A DNA stretch of 64,000 nt, taken from the NCBI GenBank assembly GCA_046735175.1, contig JBKPSP010000027.1, forward strand, positions 220 through 64,219. The letters run 5' to 3'. Made by a program: the position numbers and the translations under genes. The stretch is from Acidobacteriota bacterium. GTDB taxonomy: Bacteria; Acidobacteriota; Terriglobia; Terriglobales; Acidobacteriaceae. Positions within the stretch are counted from its first letter, which is position 1, and every line of letters begins with the position of its first letter. Shown piece by piece: positions 30,378 through 37,301 of the stretch. The notes beneath the pieces were generated by a model. That model made no database searches and was not told the DNA's origin. It saw nothing but the letters and a program-made list of their open reading frames with translations.

Positions 30378-30737
30378 TCAGTCTTCCTTCTTGGACGTGC
30401 CGGCCAGCCAGCGGAAGAACATATTCACCAGGCTGAGGAAGATGGCTCCCCAGAAGGAGGAGAAGAACGAGTCAACGCTGAAAGCGGGGCGCAGCAGGGC
30501 CGACGCCAGCTCCAGCATGAGGGCGTTGATGACTAGCCAGAAAATTCCCAGCGTGAGAACGGTGAGAGGAAAGGTAATGACTTTTAGAATCGCGCCAAGA
30601 GTTGCATTGATAAAGCCGATAACAATGGCTGCTACGAGCGCCGCAGCCAGTCCGCGCACGTGAATACCCAGCGGCAGCTGCGCGACCACCCATACCGCGA
30701 GCGCGCTCAGGATCCAGTTGATGAGGATGCGAGTCAT
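30378..30737 (-). CDS. Phage_holin_4_2 (YvlD-like) family membrane protein
   Basis: 119 aa, four TM helices. The pattern ...VIGFINATLGAILKVITFPLTVLTLGIFWLVINALML... is typical of this family. Confidence 0.75.
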   Translation of the reverse strand: MTRILINWILSALAVWVVAQLPLGIHVRGLAAALVAAIVIGFINATLGAILKVITFPLTVLTLGIFWLVINALMLELASALLRPAFSVDSFFSSFWGAIFLSLVNMFFRWLAGTSKKED

Positions 30738-30819
30738 CTTGCTCTGAGCTAAAGAATATAGTTACTGGACGGCATACACGCAAACTGCCTCAGCAAACCC
30801 GCGCAACCACGAACGCGGT

Positions 30820-30972
30820 GTCATCCCAGCGAAGCAGTAATTGAGCGCCGCGAAAACGCTGCGCAGTCGAGGGACCCTGTGTTTTTGGTCTCGTCCCTGC
30901 TTCTTACGGCCGTAAACACAAGGTCTCTCGACTACGCGGCTCGCGTAGGCGAGCCCCTTCGCTCGAGATGAC
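30820..30972. repeat. About 150-nt nested inverted-repeat element (GTCATC...CGAAG termini)
   Basis: Outer arms: gtcatcccagcgaagc / ccttcgctcgagatgac. Inner arms: cagtcgagggaccctgtgttt / aaacacaaggtctctcgactac. It accounts for the spurious 95-aa ORF 30762-31049. Confidence 0.75.
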
Positions 30973-30992
30973 ATCGCCTGTAGGGATTTACG

Positions 30993-31016
30993 TCTGACGC
31001 CTGAAGCCTGACGCCT
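30993..31016. repeat. Short heptamer array (CCTGACG/CCTGAAG x3)
   Basis: tctgacg cctgaag cctgacg cct, 25 nt upstream of the E1-beta start. Confidence 0.6.
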
Positions 31017-31040
31017 TATCGTAGTAAACTTTTTCCGGTC

Positions 31041-32015
31041 ATGGCACAACTTACATATCTGGAGGCCATCCGCCAGGGCATCTGGGAAGAGATGGAGCGC
31101 GATCCGGCCGTCTTCTGCATTGGCGAGGACATCGGTATCTACGGCGGAGCTTTCAAAATTACCGACGGATTCATTGATACCTTCGGCCCCGAACGCGTGA
31201 TCGATACTCCGATCGCGGAATCGGCAATTGTGGGCGCGGCTTTCGGCGCGTCACTAACGGGAATGCGCCCTGTTGCCGAATTTCAGTTCATGGATTTCAT
31301 CAGCTGCGCCATGAATCAGATCAGCAACATGGTGGCGAAGACGCATTATCTGTGGGGAGCACCTGCGCCGTTAGTCCTGCGCGGGCCGAGCGGCGGTGGG
31401 GTGCACGGCGGCCCATTCCACTCTCAGAATCCTGAGATGTGGTTCGTGCACAATCCCGGACTGAAGGTGGTTTGTCCGGCGACACCGTACGACGCCAAGG
31501 GGCTAATCAAGTCTGCTATCCGCGACAACAATCCGGTGGTGTTTTTCGAGCACAAGTATCTCTATCGCCGGATTAAAGAGGATGTGCCAGCGGATGATTA
31601 CGTGGTTCCTCTCGGCAAGGCGCGGATTGCCCGCGAGGGCCGCGACATTAGCATCATTACTTATGCCGCGATGGTCCACCTGGCGCTCGAAGCCGCAGAA
31701 TTGTTGGCGAAAGAGGGAATAGAACTCGAGATTGTCGATTTACGTACCTTGGCGCCGCTTGATCGCGAGGCGATTGCCGATACCGTTCGCAAGACCAACA
31801 AGGTCATCCTTCTTCACGAAGACACAAGGACCGGAGGCATCGCAGGCGAGATTGCCGCCATCATCAATGAGGAAGCATTCGACGACCTCGACGGTCCGAT
31901 CGTGCGAATTACGGCACTCGACAGCGCCGTGCCGTTTTCGCCGCCGCAGGAAGAGCACTTTCTGCCCCAGTTGAAAGATGTGGTCGAGAAAGCGCGTTGG
32001 CTGAAGTCGTATTGA
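31041..32015 (+). CDS. 2-oxoacid (pyruvate/branched-chain) dehydrogenase E1 component beta subunit
   Basis: 324 aa. The pattern ...GEDIG.YGGAFK.T.G...FG..RV.DTPI.E... is a transketolase-like Pyr/C-terminal domain pattern. Confidence 0.9.
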   Translation: MAQLTYLEAIRQGIWEEMERDPAVFCIGEDIGIYGGAFKITDGFIDTFGPERVIDTPIAESAIVGAAFGASLTGMRPVAEFQFMDFISCAMNQISNMVAKTHYLWGAPAPLVLRGPSGGGVHGGPFHSQNPEMWFVHNPGLKVVCPATPYDAKGLIKSAIRDNNPVVFFEHKYLYRRIKEDVPADDYVVPLGKARIAREGRDISIITYAAMVHLALEAAELLAKEGIELEIVDLRTLAPLDREAIADTVRKTNKVILLHEDTRTGGIAGEIAAIINEEAFDDLDGPIVRITALDSAVPFSPPQEEHFLPQLKDVVEKARWLKSY

Positions 32016-32023
32016 AATCCGAT

Positions 32024-32118
32024 GTAGAGACGTAGCTTGCTACGTTTTTTGCAGGCGGCGTGTGTCATCGCACGCTGCTGTGCCGCTGCACGCAAGACGT
32101 TGCAAGCAACGTCTCTAC
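32024..32118. repeat. Inverted pair of GTAGAGACGT-GCTTGC-ACGT modules; the left module doubles as an intrinsic terminator
   Basis: gtagagacgtagcttgctacg(tttttt) at 32024-32050 and acgttgcaagcaacgtctctac at 32097-32118. Each module is itself palindromic. Confidence 0.8.
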
Positions 32119-32140
32119 GTTCGATCTTGAGGAGATTCCC

Positions 32141-32713
32141 ATGCGAGCTTTCGTACTCGGGATCATTGTTACGATTTTTGTGGCGTTTGCCATTGTGCTC
32201 GGCGTGGCCGAGTTCGGGCTTATGCCGACGAATGCTGACGCGACTCCGCCGGCGTTCGAAACGAAGATGGCCGGAAACGCGCTTGATGCCGCGATGGAGC
32301 GCGCGGCGCCTCGGGTGAACAATCCCGTGCCGCCGACCGATGAGAACCTGATTGCCGGCATGAAGATCTACACCATGAACTGCTCGGTGTGCCACGGCAC
32401 ACTCGACTACAAGCCCAGCCCGCTTGAGCATTCGCTCTATCCGCCGCCGCCGCAGGTCATCATCGATCCCCTCGATGATCCCGAGTGGCATCTCTACTAC
32501 GCGATTCGTACTGGCGTACGCTACACGGGAATGCCAGCATGGAACAAAGCCCTCAGCGAGCAGGACATGTGGAAGGTCACCGGCTTCCTCTCGCGTCTCG
32601 ATAAACTCCCGCCGGGCGTGCAGGACTACTGGAAGAAATCCTTCGGAACTTCACCTGAGGAACACAAGGGCGAAGGGCACGAAGAACACGGCGGGCACGA
32701 GCATCACGATTGA
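32141..32713 (+). CDS. Membrane-anchored mono-haem c-type cytochrome with a His-rich C-terminal tail
   Basis: ATG 32141 is preceded by GAGGAG. There is an N-terminal TM helix, a single CSVCH haem-binding motif, a distal GMPAW Met ligand region and the tail EEHKGEGHEEHGGHEHHD. Confidence 0.8.
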   Translation: MRAFVLGIIVTIFVAFAIVLGVAEFGLMPTNADATPPAFETKMAGNALDAAMERAAPRVNNPVPPTDENLIAGMKIYTMNCSVCHGTLDYKPSPLEHSLYPPPPQVIIDPLDDPEWHLYYAIRTGVRYTGMPAWNKALSEQDMWKVTGFLSRLDKLPPGVQDYWKKSFGTSPEEHKGEGHEEHGGHEHHD

Positions 32714-32737
32714 GCATGCCCGCTTCCCAAAAAGCTC

Positions 32738-32831
32738 TTAACCGCAGGGGCGCAGAGAAGGCCCGCCGAGGGCGCAGGAGGGAGTCTTTCTCTGCGAACT
32801 TTGCGCTTTTCTTTGCGATCTCTGCGGTTAA
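32738..32831. repeat. TTAACCGCAGAG-type inverted-repeat element
   Basis: ttaaccgcaggggcgcagagaagg ... ctttgcgatctctgcggttaa, directly after the cytochrome c stop. Related copies lie at 49207-49246 and 57737-57854. Confidence 0.85.
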
Positions 32832-32948
32832 AGACTCTTCTGAGTGTAGCGCCACGTCGGGGCGGACGCCGGACGGCCTGCGACGCGTGACGATATAATT
32901 ACCAGTTACTATTCGCTCAATCCACACTGAGCCAGGTGGAAGGAAATC

Positions 32949-34295
32949 ATGCCGACTGACATCGTTATGCCCCAAATGGGCGAGTCCATCGTTGAGGGGA
33001 CCATCACCAAGTGGCTCAAGAAGCCCGGCGACAAGATCCAGCGCGACGAGCCGCTGTTTGAGATTTCGACCGACAAGGTTGACGCTGAAATTCCTGCGCC
33101 CGCGTCTGGCGTCCTGTCGGAGATCAAAGTCACTGAGGGCACGACCGTTCAGGTGAACACGGTCGTCGGCACAATTTCTTCCGATGGCGAAGGGGCGGTG
33201 AAGAGCGCGCCCACTGCCGAGAAGAAGGCTGCACCAGCCGCTTCCCCAGCAAAGGCTCAGCCACCGGCACCGTCTCCTCAAGCGAATGGAACACCGGCAG
33301 CGGCGCCGCCCGCTCCGGCCACGGCAAAGCATGATGAAGATGAACATGCGCGATCGTCACCGCTAGTCCGGAAAATCGCGCGCGAGCACAACGTGGATTT
33401 ATCGCAAGTCGAAGGCAGCGGCCTGGGCGGAAGAATTACCAAGCAGGACATCCTGGCGTTTATCGAAGGCGGAGGTTCTGCGGCTCAGGCGCCAGCTTCG
33501 ACATCGGCAGCCTACCAAGCGCCCGCGCCTTCGCGACAGCCCACGATCGAAGCACCCGCTGCGGTTGCGCCACCCCGTCCGGCCGAAATTCCCGGCGATC
33601 TCGTGCCTCAGTCGCGCATGCGGCAGCTCATCGCCAAGCACATGATCGAGTCGCGCCGCACCAGCGCCCACGTCCACTGCATGTTTGAGGTGGACCTCAC
33701 GCGCATCGTCAATATCCGGAATAAGAACAAGGCCGCGTTCGAACAGCGCAATGGCGCGCGCCTGACGTTCATGCCATTTTTCGTGCGCGCGGCAATCATC
33801 GGCCTGCAGCAGTTCCCGATCGTGAATGCCTCGACCGAAGGCGACAACATCCGCTATCACCGGCATGTGAACGTCGGCATCGCCGTCGCGCTCGATTGGG
33901 GATTGATCGTTCCCGTGCTCAAGAACGCCGACGAACTGAACTTTCTCGGCCTGCAGCGCGGAATCACCGATCTCGGCGAGCGCGCCCGCAATAAGAAACT
34001 CAAGCCGGAGGAAGTCGAAGGCTCGACGTTCACCGTCACTAATCCCGGCCAGTTCGGCGCAGTGTTCGGCTTGCCGATCATCAATCAGCCGAACTCGGCG
34101 ATCATGGGCGTCGGCGGCATCACTAAAATGCCGCTGGTCGTCACCGACAAAGACGGCAACGACTCCATCGCCATCCGCTCCGTCGTGCACCTCACCCTCG
34201 GCTACGACCACCGCCTGATAGACGGCGCCGTCGCCGACCAGTTCATGGCGTACGTGAAGAAGACGCTGGAGGGGTGGAGCGAGGATGTTGGGTAG
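32949..34295 (+). CDS. Dihydrolipoamide acyltransferase (E2) of a 2-oxoacid dehydrogenase complex
   Basis: N-terminal lipoyl domain (EISTDKVDAEIPAP), Ala/Pro linker, E3-binding domain (SPLVRKIAREHNVDL) and catalytic domain with DHRLIDGA. Confidence 0.93.
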   Translation: MPTDIVMPQMGESIVEGTITKWLKKPGDKIQRDEPLFEISTDKVDAEIPAPASGVLSEIKVTEGTTVQVNTVVGTISSDGEGAVKSAPTAEKKAAPAASPAKAQPPAPSPQANGTPAAAPPAPATAKHDEDEHARSSPLVRKIAREHNVDLSQVEGSGLGGRITKQDILAFIEGGGSAAQAPASTSAAYQAPAPSRQPTIEAPAAVAPPRPAEIPGDLVPQSRMRQLIAKHMIESRRTSAHVHCMFEVDLTRIVNIRNKNKAAFEQRNGARLTFMPFFVRAAIIGLQQFPIVNASTEGDNIRYHRHVNVGIAVALDWGLIVPVLKNADELNFLGLQRGITDLGERARNKKLKPEEVEGSTFTVTNPGQFGAVFGLPIINQPNSAIMGVGGITKMPLVVTDKDGNDSIAIRSVVHLTLGYDHRLIDGAVADQFMAYVKKTLEGWSEDVG

Positions 34296-34318
34296 GCGGC
34301 TCGCGTTTCCTTTCCTGT

Positions 34319-35496
34319 ATGCCGACAGAGACTAGAGATCACAACGTGTACATTCTGGGTGCCGGATTTTCGCGGGACTCCGGTGCTCCACTGATTCATG
34401 ATTTTTTGGATAGGTCGCGTGAGTTTTTCGACGATCCGGAGTCCGCGCTCGATCAACAGGAGCGCCAGCAGTTCGAAGATGTTTTTCAATTTAAGCGAGA
34501 GGTCGCGAAAGCCCGAGAGAAATTTCGCATTGACCTCGATGATATCGAACAGTTTTTTGGGCTTGTCGAAATGTCGCACCGTCTCGGCACCGTCAGCGCG
34601 GGAACTCGCGACGCTACTGTCTACCTCATCGCGAAAACTCTTCAGCTTGCTATAGCGAGGAATGCCCAAAGACCGCAGGTAAAGCTCCACTTACTACAAG
34701 GTTTTGCTGCACAAGATTCATTTAGTCAATACGTTCGCAAGCTTGTCGGGTACCAGCCGGACATGTTTGAGACCGACATCTACACGCATTTCGCGCTCTA
34801 TCTATCGGGAAATACGACGACCAGAGAAAGCTGCAGTCACGCTCCAATACAGTTATTACGTTTAACTACGACCTAGTTCTGGATGAAGCCCTAGATCGAG
34901 TTGAGGCGAATCCAGAATACGAGCTCGCTGGCGCTGCTTACGAAGAGGCGAAGATCGGCTACCCGGTGGTTCGCCTCCTTAAGTTACACGGCTCGACAAA
35001 TTGGGCGATCTGCGCATGCAAGCAGATCCATGTCCTTGGAAAGAAAGCCACAGCTGAGCCTGCTATGTTCAGATCTATGGCATGTCGAAAATGCGGAAAG
35101 GGTGGCCTTAAGCTGCTTTTAGTTCCACCGTCTTGGGACAAAAGCGAATATAGCCAGATTATGCAACCAGTTTGGAAAACAGCTGTCGAGGCGATCCAGC
35201 GCGCCACGAGGATCTGTGTGATTGGTTACTCAATGCCCGAAACCGATGCCTTTTTCAAGTTTTTGCTGACTCTTGGATTGGCAGAGAACGACGGACTGTA
35301 CAAGCTCATTGTTGTCGATCGCGTCCTGCAAGCTCCCACTGCTGACGAAGTAACAATCGAAAAACGTTGGCGAAACATGCTGGAAGGAGTGTTTGTCAAA
35401 CGACGCTTTCACTTTTTCGACCGCGGTGTGGCAGAGTTCATGAAAGGGCCGATTCAGTATCACCTACGACGCGGAGAGCAAGTCAATATGAGTTAA
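34319..35496 (+). pseudogene. SIR2-like (SIR2_2 / defence-type NADase-like) gene interrupted by a single frameshift
   Basis: ORF 34319-34876 carries VYILGAGFSRDSGAPL. The -1 frame continues from ~34810 with KYDDQRKLQSRSNTVITFNYDLVLDEAL...VVRLLKLHGSTNW...CRKCG...VIGYSMPETD to 35496. Adding one nt in the gggaaa run near 34808-34813 gives one 392-aa ORF. The Asn (FNYD) and His (LHGS) residues are intact. Confidence 0.75.
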
Positions 35497-35690
35497 ATTC
35501 CAGGGGTTCATACAGGTTCCCGGACGATTTTTGTGGGTACAGTCTTACTTGAGAAGGAGTGGTAGATCGCACAGCGGAGCCTGTCCGTGTTCAACCAGTC
35601 CTCAAACTTTGCATCTTGTTCCATCAGCGCAACCCATTCGGGGGCTGGCCCGGCCTTTCCTTTTCTACTTACGGAACCTCCACGATGAGG

Positions 35691-35852
35691 CTGCCCCAGC
35701 CTTTGCGGTTTTCAAAGGCTGGGTTATCACGAACGATGAACCAGGTGGCGGTTGTCGCAATGTTCGGGTGCGAATGGAAGTTGAGGGTGCGGGAAGGCTG
35801 GCCCAAGCGGTCGAAAATCCCTGCCCTTTGAAAACCACAAAGCACGGGGCAT
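35691..35852. repeat. Inverted-repeat element (TGCCCC..CTTTG.GGTTTTCAAAGG arms)
   Basis: The left arm is ctgccccagcctttgcggttttcaaaggctggg (35691-35723). The right arm is ccctgccctttgaaaaccacaaagcacggggcat (35818-35852). Arms are about 80% complementary by eye. Confidence 0.7.
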
Positions 35853-35957
35853 CCTCAATTCTAGTGATACATACCGTGAAAAGCGGGCCGTCTCCCAATC
35901 TGGGATAAGTTAGACCGGCAGCTCGTACTGCGCTATCCTTCTGGCGGGGTTTGAGCC

Positions 35958-37301
35958 ATGAACAAACGGACCTTCCTCAAGCTCGGCTCGGCTGCGGCAG
36001 CCACTCCGTTCCTCTCACCCATGCTTGCCTGGGCTTCGAAGGAAAAGCTGACCAACTGGGCGGGCAATCTCGAATACGGAACGGAGCAGCTCACTTCGGC
36101 CGCTTCGACAACAGACGTTCAGAACTTTGTGAAGGCTCACAGCAGCTTCAAGGTCCTCGGCACCCGCCACTGCTTCAACGACATCGCTAATACCTCACAC
36201 GAGTTCCTCTCGTTGAAGCCTCAGGACAAAGTTGTTGGACTGGACGCGAAGGCGCGCACGGTAACGATTGAAGCCGGCATGAAATACGGTCAATTGGCCC
36301 CTTATCTTCATCAGAACGGATTCGCGCTTCATAATCTCGCCTCGTTGCCACACATTTCAGTTGCGGGCGCGTGCAGTACCGGTACGCACGGATCGGGAGA
36401 GAAGAACGGAACTTTGTCCACTGCCGTCTCAGCGCTGGAAATGGTTCTGGCCTCGGGAGAAGTGCGCATGCTATCGCGCGAGAAGGACGGGGAGACATTC
36501 CATGGCGCGGTGGTTGGTCTGGGAGCGCTGGGTGTAATTACTAAACTCACTCTCGATCTTCAGCCCACCTTCATGATGCAGCAGTACGTTTACGAAGACC
36601 TGCCGCTCGATCAACTGACGGAGAATTTCGATGCCATCGAAGCTGCCGGATACAGCGTGAGCCTGTTTACCGACTGGCAGAAGCCGCGCCTGAATGAAGT
36701 CTGGATCAAGAGCCGGATGGACGCGGAACACAAATTCGAAGCTAAGCCGGTGTTCTACGATGCCAAGCTCGCAACACGCAATCTACATCCGATCGCAGAT
36801 CTCTCGGCAGAAAACTGTACCGAGCAAATGGGAGTTCCCGGGCCCTGGTACGAACGCCTGCCGCACTTCCGCATGGGATTCACGCCCAGCGCAGGCAAAG
36901 AGCTGCAGTCAGAATACTTCGTGCCTCGCCAGCACGCGGTGGATGCGATCCTCGCGGTGCAGCGGCTCCACGAAATGGTCAGCCCGCACATGCTGATCAC
37001 CGAAATTAGAACCATTGCCGCTGATGACTTGTGGATGAGTACTGCCTACAAGCAGCCAAGTGTGGCCATCCACTTCACCTGGAAGCAGGATTTGCCAGCG
37101 GTCAGTAAGGTGCTGCCGGTCATCGAGAAAGAGTTGACTCCGTTCAAAGTCCGCCCGCACTGGGGAAAGCTGTTCACCATCAGTCGTGAAGAACTGAAGA
37201 CGAGGTACGAAATGCTGCCGGAGTTCGTCGCGCTATGCAATCAGTTCGACCCCAAGGGCAAATTCCGCAACAGCTTTCTCAACAGAAATATTTTTCGCTA
37301 G
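35958..37301 (+). CDS. Tat-signal FAD-binding oxidoreductase (alditol / sugar-1,4-lactone oxidase family)
   Basis: NKRTFLKLGSAAAATPFL...AWA is a Tat-like leader. It has a PCMH-type FAD-binding domain (GTRHCFN, GTHGSG) and a C-terminal ALO-type domain (HWGK). Confidence 0.85.
   Translation: MNKRTFLKLGSAAAATPFLSPMLAWASKEKLTNWAGNLEYGTEQLTSAASTTDVQNFVKAHSSFKVLGTRHCFNDIANTSHEFLSLKPQDKVVGLDAKARTVTIEAGMKYGQLAPYLHQNGFALHNLASLPHISVAGACSTGTHGSGEKNGTLSTAVSALEMVLASGEVRMLSREKDGETFHGAVVGLGALGVITKLTLDLQPTFMMQQYVYEDLPLDQLTENFDAIEAAGYSVSLFTDWQKPRLNEVWIKSRMDAEHKFEAKPVFYDAKLATRNLHPIADLSAENCTEQMGVPGPWYERLPHFRMGFTPSAGKELQSEYFVPRQHAVDAILAVQRLHEMVSPHMLITEIRTIAADDLWMSTAYKQPSVAIHFTWKQDLPAVSKVLPVIEKELTPFKVRPHWGKLFTISREELKTRYEMLPEFVALCNQFDPKGKFRNSFLNRNIFR

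What the first reader, a model, noticed from the sequence alone, without database searches (positions are those of the whole stretch)
34319..35496. Frameshifted, AT-richer SIR2-like gene immediately downstream of the lipoylated E2 gene
Two adjacent ORFs (34319-34876 and 34966-35496) form one SIR2-like protein broken by a single frameshift. The upstream frame carries the Rossmann start VYILGAGFSRDSGAPL. From ~34810 the -1 frame continues KYDDQRKLQSRSNTVITFNYDLVLDEAL...LLKLHGSTNW, then a Cys-rich insert (CACK...CRKCG) and VIGYSMPETD. Adding one base in the gggaaa run (~34808-34813) gives a 392-aa ORF.

The Asn (NYD) and His (LHGS) residues used by defence-type SIR2 NADases (ThsA, DSR, SIR2-HerA and SPARSA families) are intact. 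The lesion is therefore either very recent or a homopolymer sequencing error.

Hand counts give 61/120 and 56/120 G+C in two samples, against ~59% in neighbouring genes, which suggests horizontal acquisition.

Two readings are possible: (a) a decaying single-gene anti-phage NADase, or (b) a sirtuin-type modifier of the lipoyl-E2 encoded 24 nt upstream. Precedents for (b) are the lipoamidase activity of SIRT4/CobB and the lipoylation-dependent ADP-ribosylation of the SirTM/GcvH-L operons.
Basis: partly seen in the sequence, partly recalled or inferred. Interest (0 to 1): 0.6.

Follow-up and report, generated by a model that had tools for sequence, protein, structure and literature searches.

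The report
Broken stand-alone SIR2-like accessory gene
A single missing base has split a small NAD-using SIR2-type enzyme gene that sits in a variable slot behind a metabolic E2 gene in a soil acidobacterium. It most likely belongs to an untested family of one-gene phage-defence enzymes, and nothing indicates it acts on its E2 neighbour.

Summary
Frame 1 (34319-34810) and frame 3 (34810-35496) together encode one ~392-aa protein that has lost one base in TCGGGAAATAC (34805-34815).

- **Family.** The read-through aligns end to end with more than 800 intact ~390-aa proteins (best 73-74% identity). Profile search finds 1,110 clusters at E<=1e-30, almost all single-domain. It is SIR2_2-type: GAGFS, N184/D186/H225 and a conserved Cys4 zinc module. 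The AlphaFold model of an orthologue has pLDDT 91. Its best PDB match is the SIR2 of SIR2-HerA, followed by classical sirtuins.
- **Accessory gene.** It is absent from 30 of 30 congeners. It lies in a 1.66-kb islet exactly between the E2 stop and the next conserved gene. Its G+C is ~50-52% in every host examined.
- **E2 link.** E2 adjacency occurs only in one small clade (3 genomes). About 18 other contexts lack E2. Seven of those carry defence, toxin-antitoxin or mobile-element genes (SIR2-HerA, OLD nuclease, AbiU2, HEPN-like Ymh).
- **The lesion.** Apart from the frameshift the copy is undecayed (125 of 127 conserved columns kept). The lesion is therefore recent, or less likely an assembly error.

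Reading (a), an inactivated one-gene NADase-type defence gene, is favoured. Reading (b), an E2 modifier, is unsupported.

The parts
32949..34295 (+). Upstream neighbour: lipoyl-bearing E2 acyltransferase (448 aa), the last gene of a conserved E1-beta / cytochrome c / E2 block
   Evidence: Pfam finds Biotin_lipoyl, E3_binding and 2-oxoacid_dh. Orthologues at 75-81% identity occur in congeners.
34296..34318 (+). 23-nt spacer between the E2 stop and the SIR2-like start, with no terminator-like or promoter-like site
   Evidence: The spacer is 20 nt in L001 and L137.
34319..34810 (+). N-terminal part of the SIR2-like gene (frame 1, residues 1-164): Rossmann start GAGFS (34358-34372) and a helical insert
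   Evidence: It aligns with residues 1-163 of intact homologues.
34805..34815 (+). Lesion site TCGGGAAATAC, where one base is missing relative to TCG GGN AAA TAC. In the 0 frame it reads G GGA AAT, which has the form of a -1 slippery heptamer.
   Evidence: There is no stable downstream RNA structure (z = +1.06).
34811..34876 (+). Out-of-frame tail of the upstream ORF (NTTTRESCSHAPIQLLRLTTT, then stop)
34810..35496 (+). C-terminal part (frame 3, residues 166-393): N184 (34864-34866), D186 (34870-34872), H225 (34987-34989), the Cys4 zinc module (35011-35094), VPPSWDK and GYSMPETD; stop at 35494-35496
   Evidence: PMC11472057 names N163/D165/H212 in the aligned SIR2 of SIR2-HerA.
35497..35957 (.). 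Non-coding remainder of the 1.66-kb islet. It holds an inverted repeat (35686-35718 / 35825-35857) and a terminator-like hairpin (35640-35658, + strand). Homology with congeners resumes at 35957.
35958..37301 (+). Downstream conserved gene: FAD-linked oxidase (ALO / FAD_binding_4). In congeners G010 and G008 it follows E2 after different cargo.

Best explanation
**What it is (shown).** The locus is a single gene for a ~392-aa stand-alone SIR2_2-type protein. It has an NAD-binding Rossmann fold, the Asn/Asp/His catalytic set and a sirtuin-like Cys4 zinc module. It belongs to a large, uncharacterised family centred on Acidobacteriota. It is an accessory gene lodged in a 1.66-kb variable islet directly behind the E2 gene. 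It has been switched off by the loss of one base, which separates the NAD-binding N-terminal half from the catalytic C-terminal half.

**What it does (inferred).** By analogy with ThsA, DSR and the SIR2 of SIR2-HerA, the intact protein most likely consumes NAD+, by NADase or ADP-ribosyl transfer, when triggered, as a one-gene anti-phage or abortive-infection effector.

**How the state arose (inferred).** Such genes are costly and are often lost, and this copy was inactivated very recently. Its position after E2 reflects insertion into a variable slot at the 3' edge of a conserved operon. There it can be read from the operon's promoter. It does not reflect a functional tie to E2.
For: **Identity**
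- End-to-end alignment with more than 800 intact homologues.
- Profile search finds 1,110 clusters at E<=1e-30, almost all of 350-415 aa.
- Pfam SIR2_2 at threshold, plus weak PADLOC SIR2 and Aga_SIR2 hits.
- AF2 model of orthologue P0003: pLDDT 91.1, pTM 0.91.
- Foldseek top hits are the SIR2 of E. coli SIR2-HerA/Nezha (E 6e-12, TM ~0.5), then Sir2Af2, Sir2Tm, SIRT3 and ThsA.
- The family profile aligns NYD and KLHGS.NW with N163/D165/H212 of the Paenibacillus SIR2.

**Accessory status**
- Absent from 30 of 30 same-genus and 30 of 30 family- or order-level genomes.
- Homology with congeners stops at the E2 stop and resumes at the FAD-oxidase start.
- The slot carries different cargo in nearly every congener: a PIN gene, a NucS_C-like nuclease, DUF4015 and others.

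**Defence association**
- Relatives sit next to a canonical SIR2+HerA pair and an HNH gene (L062), an OLD nuclease (L063), HEPN_AbiU2 (L061), and HEPN-like Hypoth_Ymh with ParE (L143, L147).
- Others sit next to IS200-like or PDDEXK genes (L003, L059).
- No conserved partner gene exists.

**Recurrent loss**
- Many relatives are truncated or frameshifted at different positions, some on 50-160-kb contigs.

**Recent lesion**
- 67 of 68 invariant and 58 of 59 near-invariant family columns are kept.
- The branch length is not inflated.

**The lesion is probably real**
- No other broken gene was seen in the 64-kb window.
- All 6 of the ~1,000-aa RND genes in the genome are intact.
Against: - No member of this family has been tested. 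Three paper searches found none that names this family, so NADase activity and defence are inferred.
- Profile matches to the defence SIR2 models are weak (E about 1e-5 to 1e-7).
- The family keeps the sirtuin zinc module. PMC11472057 says this module is absent from bacterial defence SIR2s and is linked to deacylase activity.
- About half of the contexts examined are plain housekeeping neighbourhoods: E2, SerRS, histidine/aromatic lyase, MiaB, Lpt/ABC.
- No homologue was found in 50,697 phage records and only two distant ones in plasmids.
- Reads could not be checked, so the frameshift may be an assembly error and the gene may in fact be intact.
Confidence: 0.6

Rival explanations
1. The gene is intact in the organism, and the frameshift is a consensus or assembly error at the short GGG/AAA runs. 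Everything else in the best explanation stands (stand-alone SIR2_2-type accessory gene).
For: - The copy shows no other sign of decay: 125 of 127 conserved columns are kept and the branch is normal.
- The lesion lies in adjacent 3-base homopolymers.
- The genome is a 259-contig draft.
- No independent assembly of this strain was found to confirm the break.
Against: - Runs of three bases are not error-prone in short-read data.
- About 80 kb of other coding sequence that was checked has no frameshift.
- Relatives of this family are often genuinely truncated at various sites.
Confidence: 0.3
2. The protein is a sirtuin-type protein modifier (de-lipoylase, deacylase or ADP-ribosyltransferase) that acts on the lipoyl domain of the E2 encoded 23 nt upstream. 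It would be co-transcribed with E2.
For: - Same strand, with a 20-23-nt spacer and no terminator, in three genomes whose downstream genes all differ.
- The family keeps a Cys4 zinc module at the same place and spacing as classical sirtuins.
- PMC11472057 links that module to deacylase activity.
- Classical sirtuins are strong fold hits.
Against: - The three E2-adjacent genes form one small clade, which also contains two members sitting elsewhere. This amounts to at most one or two placement events.
- About 18 other contexts lack any E2 within 5-6 kb.
- Thirty of 30 congeners have the orthologous E2 without this gene.
- Pfam SIR2 scores 13 bits against a cut-off of 24, and NCBIfam CobB scores 11 against 320.
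- There is no macrodomain, GcvH-L or LplA2 partner as in SirTM operons.
Confidence: 0.06
3. The break is bridged by programmed -1 ribosomal frameshifting on G GGA AAT. This would yield full-length protein (...LSGNYDD...) at low level and so throttle a toxic enzyme.
For: - The 0-frame sequence at the break is a canonical X XXY YYZ heptamer.
- The slip product would carry Asn at a variable family position where one relative (P0125) has Asn.
Against: - A one-base deletion from GGN AAA TAC creates this heptamer automatically.
- There is no stable downstream structure (z = +1.06) and no Rfam hit.
- Orthologues are single ORFs with GGT AAG / GGC AAG at the site.
- Broken relatives break at different places.
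Confidence: 0.03

Closest known systems
SIR2 subunit of the SIR2-HerA (Nezha) anti-phage system (PDB 8sub, 8uae, 8j4u, 8w9l)
   Same: - It is the best structural match (Foldseek E 6e-12, TM ~0.5, similar length of ~380-400 aa).
- It is the best sequence-profile match in the PDB (E 0.004).
- The catalytic N-x-D and H of KLHGS.NW align.
   Different: - Only 10-15% identity.
- No HerA gene beside it in the window or in any other context. The one exception, L062, has its own canonical SIR2+HerA pair upstream.
- This family has a Cys4 zinc module that the HerA-linked SIR2 lacks.
Thoeris ThsA, DSR1/DSR2 and SIR2-APAZ (SPARSA) defence NADases
   Same: They share the Pfam SIR2_2 type, the GAGxS / NYD / HGS motifs, the fold (ThsA 8btp, E 2.5e-7) and a weak PADLOC Aga_SIR2 match (26 bits).
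   Different: - Those proteins carry sensor or partner modules: SLOG with ThsB, a >1,000-aa sensor region, or APAZ with a short pAgo.
- This protein is a bare ~390-aa SIR2 domain with a short C-terminal helical tail and no fixed neighbour.
Classical sirtuin deacylases (CobB, Sir2Af2, Sir2Tm, SIRT2/3), including the lipoamidase activity of SIRT4/CobB
   Same: - Rossmann fold and catalytic His.
- A Cys4 zinc module placed directly after the catalytic His with the same spacing (aligned with PfSir2A).
- Foldseek E about 1e-8.
   Different: - Below the Pfam SIR2 and NCBIfam CobB cut-offs by a wide margin.
- NYD in place of QNID-type motifs.
- A large helical insert between GAGFS and NYD.
- Patchy accessory distribution rather than a housekeeping one.
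SirTM / GcvH-L / macrodomain / LplA2 operons (lipoylation-dependent ADP-ribosylation)
   Same: A sirtuin-like gene encoded beside a lipoyl-carrier protein gene.
   Different: - No macrodomain, GcvH-L or LplA2 gene is present.
- The neighbour is a catalytic E2.
- The adjacency is limited to one clade of the family.

Membership tests
SIR2_2 (PF13289) superfamily | Profile match at or above the Pfam gathering score | tested here: met
   The C-terminal piece scores 24.9 bits against a cut-off of 24.5. The read-through scores 23.7, just under. Most homologues carry a precomputed PF13289 hit.
SIR2_2 (PF13289) superfamily | NAD-binding GAGxS plus the catalytic Asn/Asp and His | tested here: met
   GAGFS, N184, D186 and H225 are invariant in 69 relatives. 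They align with N163/D165/H212 of PDB 8w9l.
SIR2_2 (PF13289) superfamily | SIR2 Rossmann fold | tested here: met
   AF2 model of the orthologue has pLDDT 91. There are 93 PDB matches at E<=0.001, and all 50 hits listed (the tool shows only the top 50) are SIR2 proteins.
SIR2-HerA (Nezha) system | Adjacent HerA-type ATPase gene | tested here: not met
   The neighbours are E2 and an FAD oxidase. A HerA query finds nothing in the window. No HerA is present in other contexts except L062, which has its own SIR2.
Thoeris ThsA | C-terminal SLOG domain and a ThsB (TIR) partner gene | tested here: not met
   Only a SIR2_2 hit on the protein. The protein is a single domain of 392 aa. No TIR gene is adjacent.
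DSR1/DSR2 | Large (>1,000 aa) protein with a sensor region fused to SIR2 | tested here: not met
   392 aa. Family lengths are 350-415 aa.
SPARSA (SIR2-APAZ + short pAgo) | APAZ region and an adjacent short Argonaute | tested here: not met
   Only a weak Aga_SIR2 match (26 bits) limited to the NYD..HGS stretch. The adjacent genes are E2 and an FAD oxidase.
Classical sirtuin deacylases (PF02146 / CobB) | Profile match over the curated cut-off | tested here: not met
   Pfam SIR2 scores 13.2 bits against 24. NCBIfam CobB scores 11 against 320.
Classical sirtuin deacylases (PF02146 / CobB) | Cys4 zinc module after the catalytic His | tested here: met
   C233, C235, C257 and C260 are conserved (three invariant, one at >=90%). 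They align with the Zn module of PfSir2A 3jwp. Metal binding itself was not tested.
Classical sirtuin deacylases (PF02146 / CobB) | NAD-dependent removal of acyl or lipoyl groups from lysine | not testable with these tools
   This needs an enzyme assay.
SirTM-type lipoyl-dependent ADP-ribosylation operon | Operon with a macrodomain, GcvH-L and LplA2 | tested here: not met
   The flanking genes are E1-beta, cytochrome c, E2 and an FAD oxidase.
Anti-phage defence gene (generic) | Recurrent placement beside known defence genes | tested here: inconclusive
   About 7 of 19 independent contexts have an adjacent defence, toxin-antitoxin or mobile-element gene. No background rate was computed.
Anti-phage defence gene (generic) | Protection against phage when expressed | not testable with these tools
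   This needs an experiment.

The most novel reading that the evidence does not exclude
The family may be a missing link between deacylase sirtuins and defence NADases. It would be a one-gene, zinc-module-bearing SIR2 that modifies a protein target rather than simply burning NAD+. In the E2-linked clade it would be co-transcribed with, and act on, the lipoyl domain of the 2-oxoacid dehydrogenase E2, for example shutting down central metabolism on infection by ADP-ribosylating or stripping the lipoyl-lysine.
Probability: 0.06. Interest if true: 0.7.

Novelty: new variant of a known kind. Interest (0 to 1): 0.33.

Why it matters
SIR2-domain NADases are a major class of bacterial immune effectors. 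All characterised ones work with a sensor domain or a partner protein, and all lack the sirtuin zinc module.

This locus points to a large family: more than 1,000 clusters at 50% identity, mostly in soil Acidobacteriota. Its members are bare ~390-aa SIR2 proteins that keep the zinc module and have no fixed partner. If they defend against phage, how they sense infection is an open question.

The individual copy in this window is an inactivated accessory gene, which is ordinary. It is useful mainly as a pointer to the family and as an example of how often such genes are lost.

Tried and rejected
- **Independent assemblies with the same break.** Exact look-ups of the two ORF products, with several start choices, were not in the collection. 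A search with the N-terminal piece, including its out-of-frame tail, found nothing above 79% identity over most of its length; one short fragment reached 86% over 42% of the query.
- **Programmed frameshift.** The site is a slippery heptamer, but there is no downstream structure and no Rfam match. Orthologues are unbroken and broken relatives break at different sites. Rejected as unlikely.
- **Family-wide E2 linkage.** tblastn of E2 against 80 genome loci gave only one distant hit, 5 kb away. Rejected.
- **A conserved partner gene.** All-against-all comparison of neighbours in 30 loci found none. The only recurrent neighbour is an IS200-like RAYT.
- **A remnant of a Hypoth_Ymh, HerA, OLD or AbiU2 gene in the 460-nt stretch after the gene.** No match.
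- **tRNA or direct repeats bounding the islet.** None.
- **Phage or plasmid carriage.** No phage hit and two distant plasmid hits.
- **Literature.** No paper in the held library names a stand-alone SIR2 of this type.
- **E2 tree.** It was too poorly resolved to show whether the three E2-linked genomes are each other's closest relatives.
Full report
**1. The observation**

- An ORF starting at ATG 34319 encodes MPTETRDHNVYILGAGFS... and runs in frame 1 to a stop at 34874-34876.
- Frame 3 is open from 34771 and encodes ...GKYDDQRKLQSRSNTVITFNYDLVLDEAL...LLKLHGSTNWAICACK...CRKCG...VIGYSMPETD..., ending at stop 35494-35496.
- Joined at ...YLSG|KYDD..., the two parts give a protein of about 392 aa.
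- That protein aligns over 97-100% of its length with more than 800 database proteins of 378-405 aa. The best hits are 73-74% identical, with E-values down to 2e-185.
- The two closest syntenic orthologues read GCG GGT AAG TAT GAC and TGC GGC AAG TAC GAT at the break. The window reads TCG GGA AAT ACG AC.
- One base is therefore missing at or beside the third position of the Gly codon, within GGGAAA (34807-34812).
- G+C is 50.2% in the gene, 61.7% in E2 and 56.4% in the window. GC3 is 0.53-0.54 against 0.60-0.75 for neighbouring genes.
- The spacer to the E2 stop is 23 nt.

**2. What the protein is**

*Profile matches.* These are weak but consistent.
- Pfam SIR2_2 scores 24.9 bits on the C-terminal piece (cut-off 24.5).
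- The classical SIR2 model scores only 13 bits (cut-off 24).
- PADLOC gives Aga_SIR2 and the SIR2 models of SIR2-HerA at E of 1e-5 to 1e-7.
- NCBIfam gives nothing significant.

*Family size.*
- A 69-sequence alignment has 68 invariant columns. They include GAGFS, FNYD, KLHGS.N, three Cys with a fourth at >=90%, P-P-W-D-K and G-Y-S.
- A profile search of 1.84 billion representatives finds 1,110 clusters at E<=1e-30 and 5,644 at E<=1e-10.
- Almost all the best hits are 350-415 aa, which means single-domain proteins.
- In the genome collection, close relatives (>=45% identity) all come from Acidobacteriota/Terriglobales MAGs. Relatives at 22-34% identity occur in many phyla.

*Structure.*
- An AlphaFold2 model of the intact orthologue P0003 is confident (pLDDT 91.1, pTM 0.91).
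- Its best PDB matches are the SIR2 subunits of the E. coli SIR2-HerA/Nezha complexes (E 6e-12, TM ~0.5).
- Classical sirtuins follow (Sir2Af2, Sir2Tm, SIRT3, SIRT2; E about 1e-8 to 1e-6), then ThsA.

*Catalytic residues and the zinc module.*
- The family profile aligns its NYD and KLHGS.NW with residues 163-165 and 212 of the Paenibacillus SIR2 (8w9l). The authors name these residues as catalytic (N163, D165, H212).
- The same profile aligns H-x7-C-x-C...C-x2-C with the zinc module of Plasmodium Sir2A.
- That paper states that the zinc finger is absent from bacterial defence SIR2 proteins. Its presence here is a real difference from ThsA, DSR and HerA-linked SIR2.

**3. Genomic setting**

*The genome.*
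- It is a 4.26-Mb, 259-contig draft, 94% complete, with one copy of the gene.

*Distribution.*
- None of 30 same-genus genomes and none of 30 further genomes of the family or order has an orthologue.
- Most of them do have the orthologous E2, at 75-81% identity.

*The slot behind E2.*
- The DNA after E2 is a synteny break point: almost every congener has different genes there.
- In G010 and G008 the same FAD oxidase follows E2, as in the window. Nucleotide homology stops exactly at the E2 stop (34295) and resumes at the oxidase start (35957).
- Between those points G010 has 1.56 kb and G008 has 1.03 kb of unrelated DNA, where the window has its 1.66 kb.
- Other congeners carry a PIN gene, a NucS_C-like nuclease, a DUF4015/LysM gene, a histidine kinase and others in the slot.
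- No tRNA gene and no direct repeats flank the islet.
- There is no terminator-like or promoter-like site between E2 and the SIR2-like gene. A terminator-like hairpin lies at 35640-35658. Read-through from the E2 operon is therefore plausible but not shown.

**4. The E2 link**

*For a link.*
- Two metagenome contigs, L001 (P0003) and L137 (P0002), show the same arrangement: holin-family gene, E1-beta, cytochrome c, E2, then the SIR2-like gene after 20 nt.
- What follows differs in each: ValRS in one and small ORFs in the other.
- By their E2 sequences both are congeners of the window's organism.

*Against a link.*
- In the SIR2 tree the three E2-linked genes fall in one small clade: (window,(P0003,(P0002,(P0001,P0006)))).
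- P0001 and P0006, nested within that clade, are not next to E2.
- All other contexts lack E2. These are P0022 and relatives, P0009, P0004, P0005, P0013 and twelve acidobacterial genome loci.

*Assessment.* The adjacency records one, or at most a few, placement events in a variable slot. It is not a family-wide association. This does not exclude a local functional tie, but it removes the main comparative argument for one.

**5. Clues to function from relatives**

No neighbour is conserved across the family. Recognised defence, toxin-antitoxin or mobile-element genes recur directly beside family members:
- L062: a canonical SIR2 (346 aa) plus HerA pair (PADLOC HerA, 769 bits) immediately upstream, and an HNH-type endonuclease downstream.
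- L063: an OLD-family ATPase-TOPRIM nuclease upstream.
- L061: HEPN_AbiU2 downstream.
- L143/L144 and L147: Hypoth_Ymh proteins with weak HEPN matches, with a ParE toxin nearby.
- L003/L057 and L059: IS200-like RAYT and PDDEXK_5 genes.
- A Cohnella plasmid homologue (33% identity) lies between a NUDIX gene and RelE/ParE pairs.

Other members sit behind SerRS, an aromatic amino-acid lyase, MiaB or Lpt/ABC genes. That makes roughly 7 of 19 independent contexts with a defence or mobile neighbour. No background rate was computed, so this is suggestive only. There is no homologue in the phage collection.

**6. State of this copy**

*No decay beyond the frameshift.*
- The read-through keeps 67 of 68 invariant and 58 of 59 near-invariant family columns.
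- The two departures are A21S and L79F. Two departures is also the family median.
- Its branch in the tree is no longer than those of its intact sisters.
- Nothing but the frameshift marks it as a pseudogene, so the lesion is either very recent or not real.

*Evidence that it is real.*
- The ORF map of the 64-kb window shows no other split gene. The two overlapping same-strand pairs are separate genes (CusF and VKOR; a small ORF and an S58 peptidase).
- All six ~1,000-aa RND transporter genes of the genome are unbroken.
- Truncated or frameshifted relatives are common and break at many different positions, several of them on contigs of 50-160 kb.

I put the odds at about 2:1 that the deletion is real. 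No second assembly of this strain was found.

**7. Programmed frameshifting**

- In the 0 frame the break reads G GGA AAT, a textbook -1 slippery heptamer. A slip would give ...LSGNYDD..., with Asn at a variable family position.
- A one-base loss from GGN AAA TAC produces this heptamer automatically.
- There is no stable structure downstream (z = +1.06) and no Rfam hit.
- Orthologues are single ORFs.
- I give this about 3%.

**8. Verdict**

- The finding is real and the gene identification is right.
- The best reading is an inactivated, or possibly mis-assembled, copy of an uncharacterised stand-alone SIR2_2-type enzyme. It probably consumes NAD+ and probably serves in defence, and it lies in a variable slot at the 3' end of an E2 operon.
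- The E2-modifier idea is not supported by distribution. It survives only through the retained zinc module and the tight spacing.
- The single locus is of modest interest. The family, a bare SIR2 with a sirtuin zinc module, no partner and more than 1,000 clusters, deserves an experimental test.

Noticed in passing
L062:3146-7672: One acidobacterial MAG has a four-gene same-strand row: a canonical SIR2 (346 aa), HerA (622 aa, PADLOC 769 bits), a member of the family studied here (48% identity), and an HNH-type endonuclease fragment. This is a defence island with two different SIR2 types side by side.
   Followed up: partly
window 34296-35957 and loci L041-L056: The position directly after the E2 stop codon is a variable slot across the genus. 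Congeners carry a PIN gene, a NucS_C-like nuclease, DUF4015/LysM, a histidine kinase, a membrane protein or rearranged blocks there. Homology with G010 and G008 ends and resumes exactly at the flanking gene boundaries.
   Followed up: partly
window 30378-34295; L001:3048-7980; L137:1354-4980: The block holin_4_2 (opposite strand) / E1-beta / c-type cytochrome / E2 has no E1-alpha gene. It is conserved in at least three congeners, so the odd composition of this 2-oxoacid dehydrogenase cluster is not an assembly accident.
   Followed up: no
window 34807-34813: The frameshift site reads G GGA AAT in the 0 frame, a canonical -1 slippery heptamer. No stimulatory structure follows it.
   Followed up: yes
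window 35686-35857: The 33-nt inverted-repeat arms (85% complementary, 106 nt apart) have partial copies on two other contigs of the genome (C199, C200). This is a low-copy repeat element of unknown nature.
   Followed up: partly
L143:4674-5414; L147:101-883: Hypoth_Ymh (PF09509) proteins, 42% identical to each other, lie beside family members in two different arrangements, one upstream and one downstream. They weakly match HEPN models of defence systems. They could be an occasional partner.
   Followed up: partly
L148:5379-7083 (Cohnella herbarum plasmid NZ_CP051681.1): A 33%-identical homologue annotated 'hypothetical protein' follows a NUDIX gene by 170 nt and is flanked by RelE/ParE toxin genes. 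A NUDIX-SIR2 pairing would fit NAD/ADP-ribose chemistry.
   Followed up: no
P0121, P0122, P0128, P0137, P0142, P0147, P0148: Many relatives of the family are truncated with out-of-frame tails at different positions, several on long contigs. This suggests the family is frequently pseudogenised in nature.
   Followed up: partly
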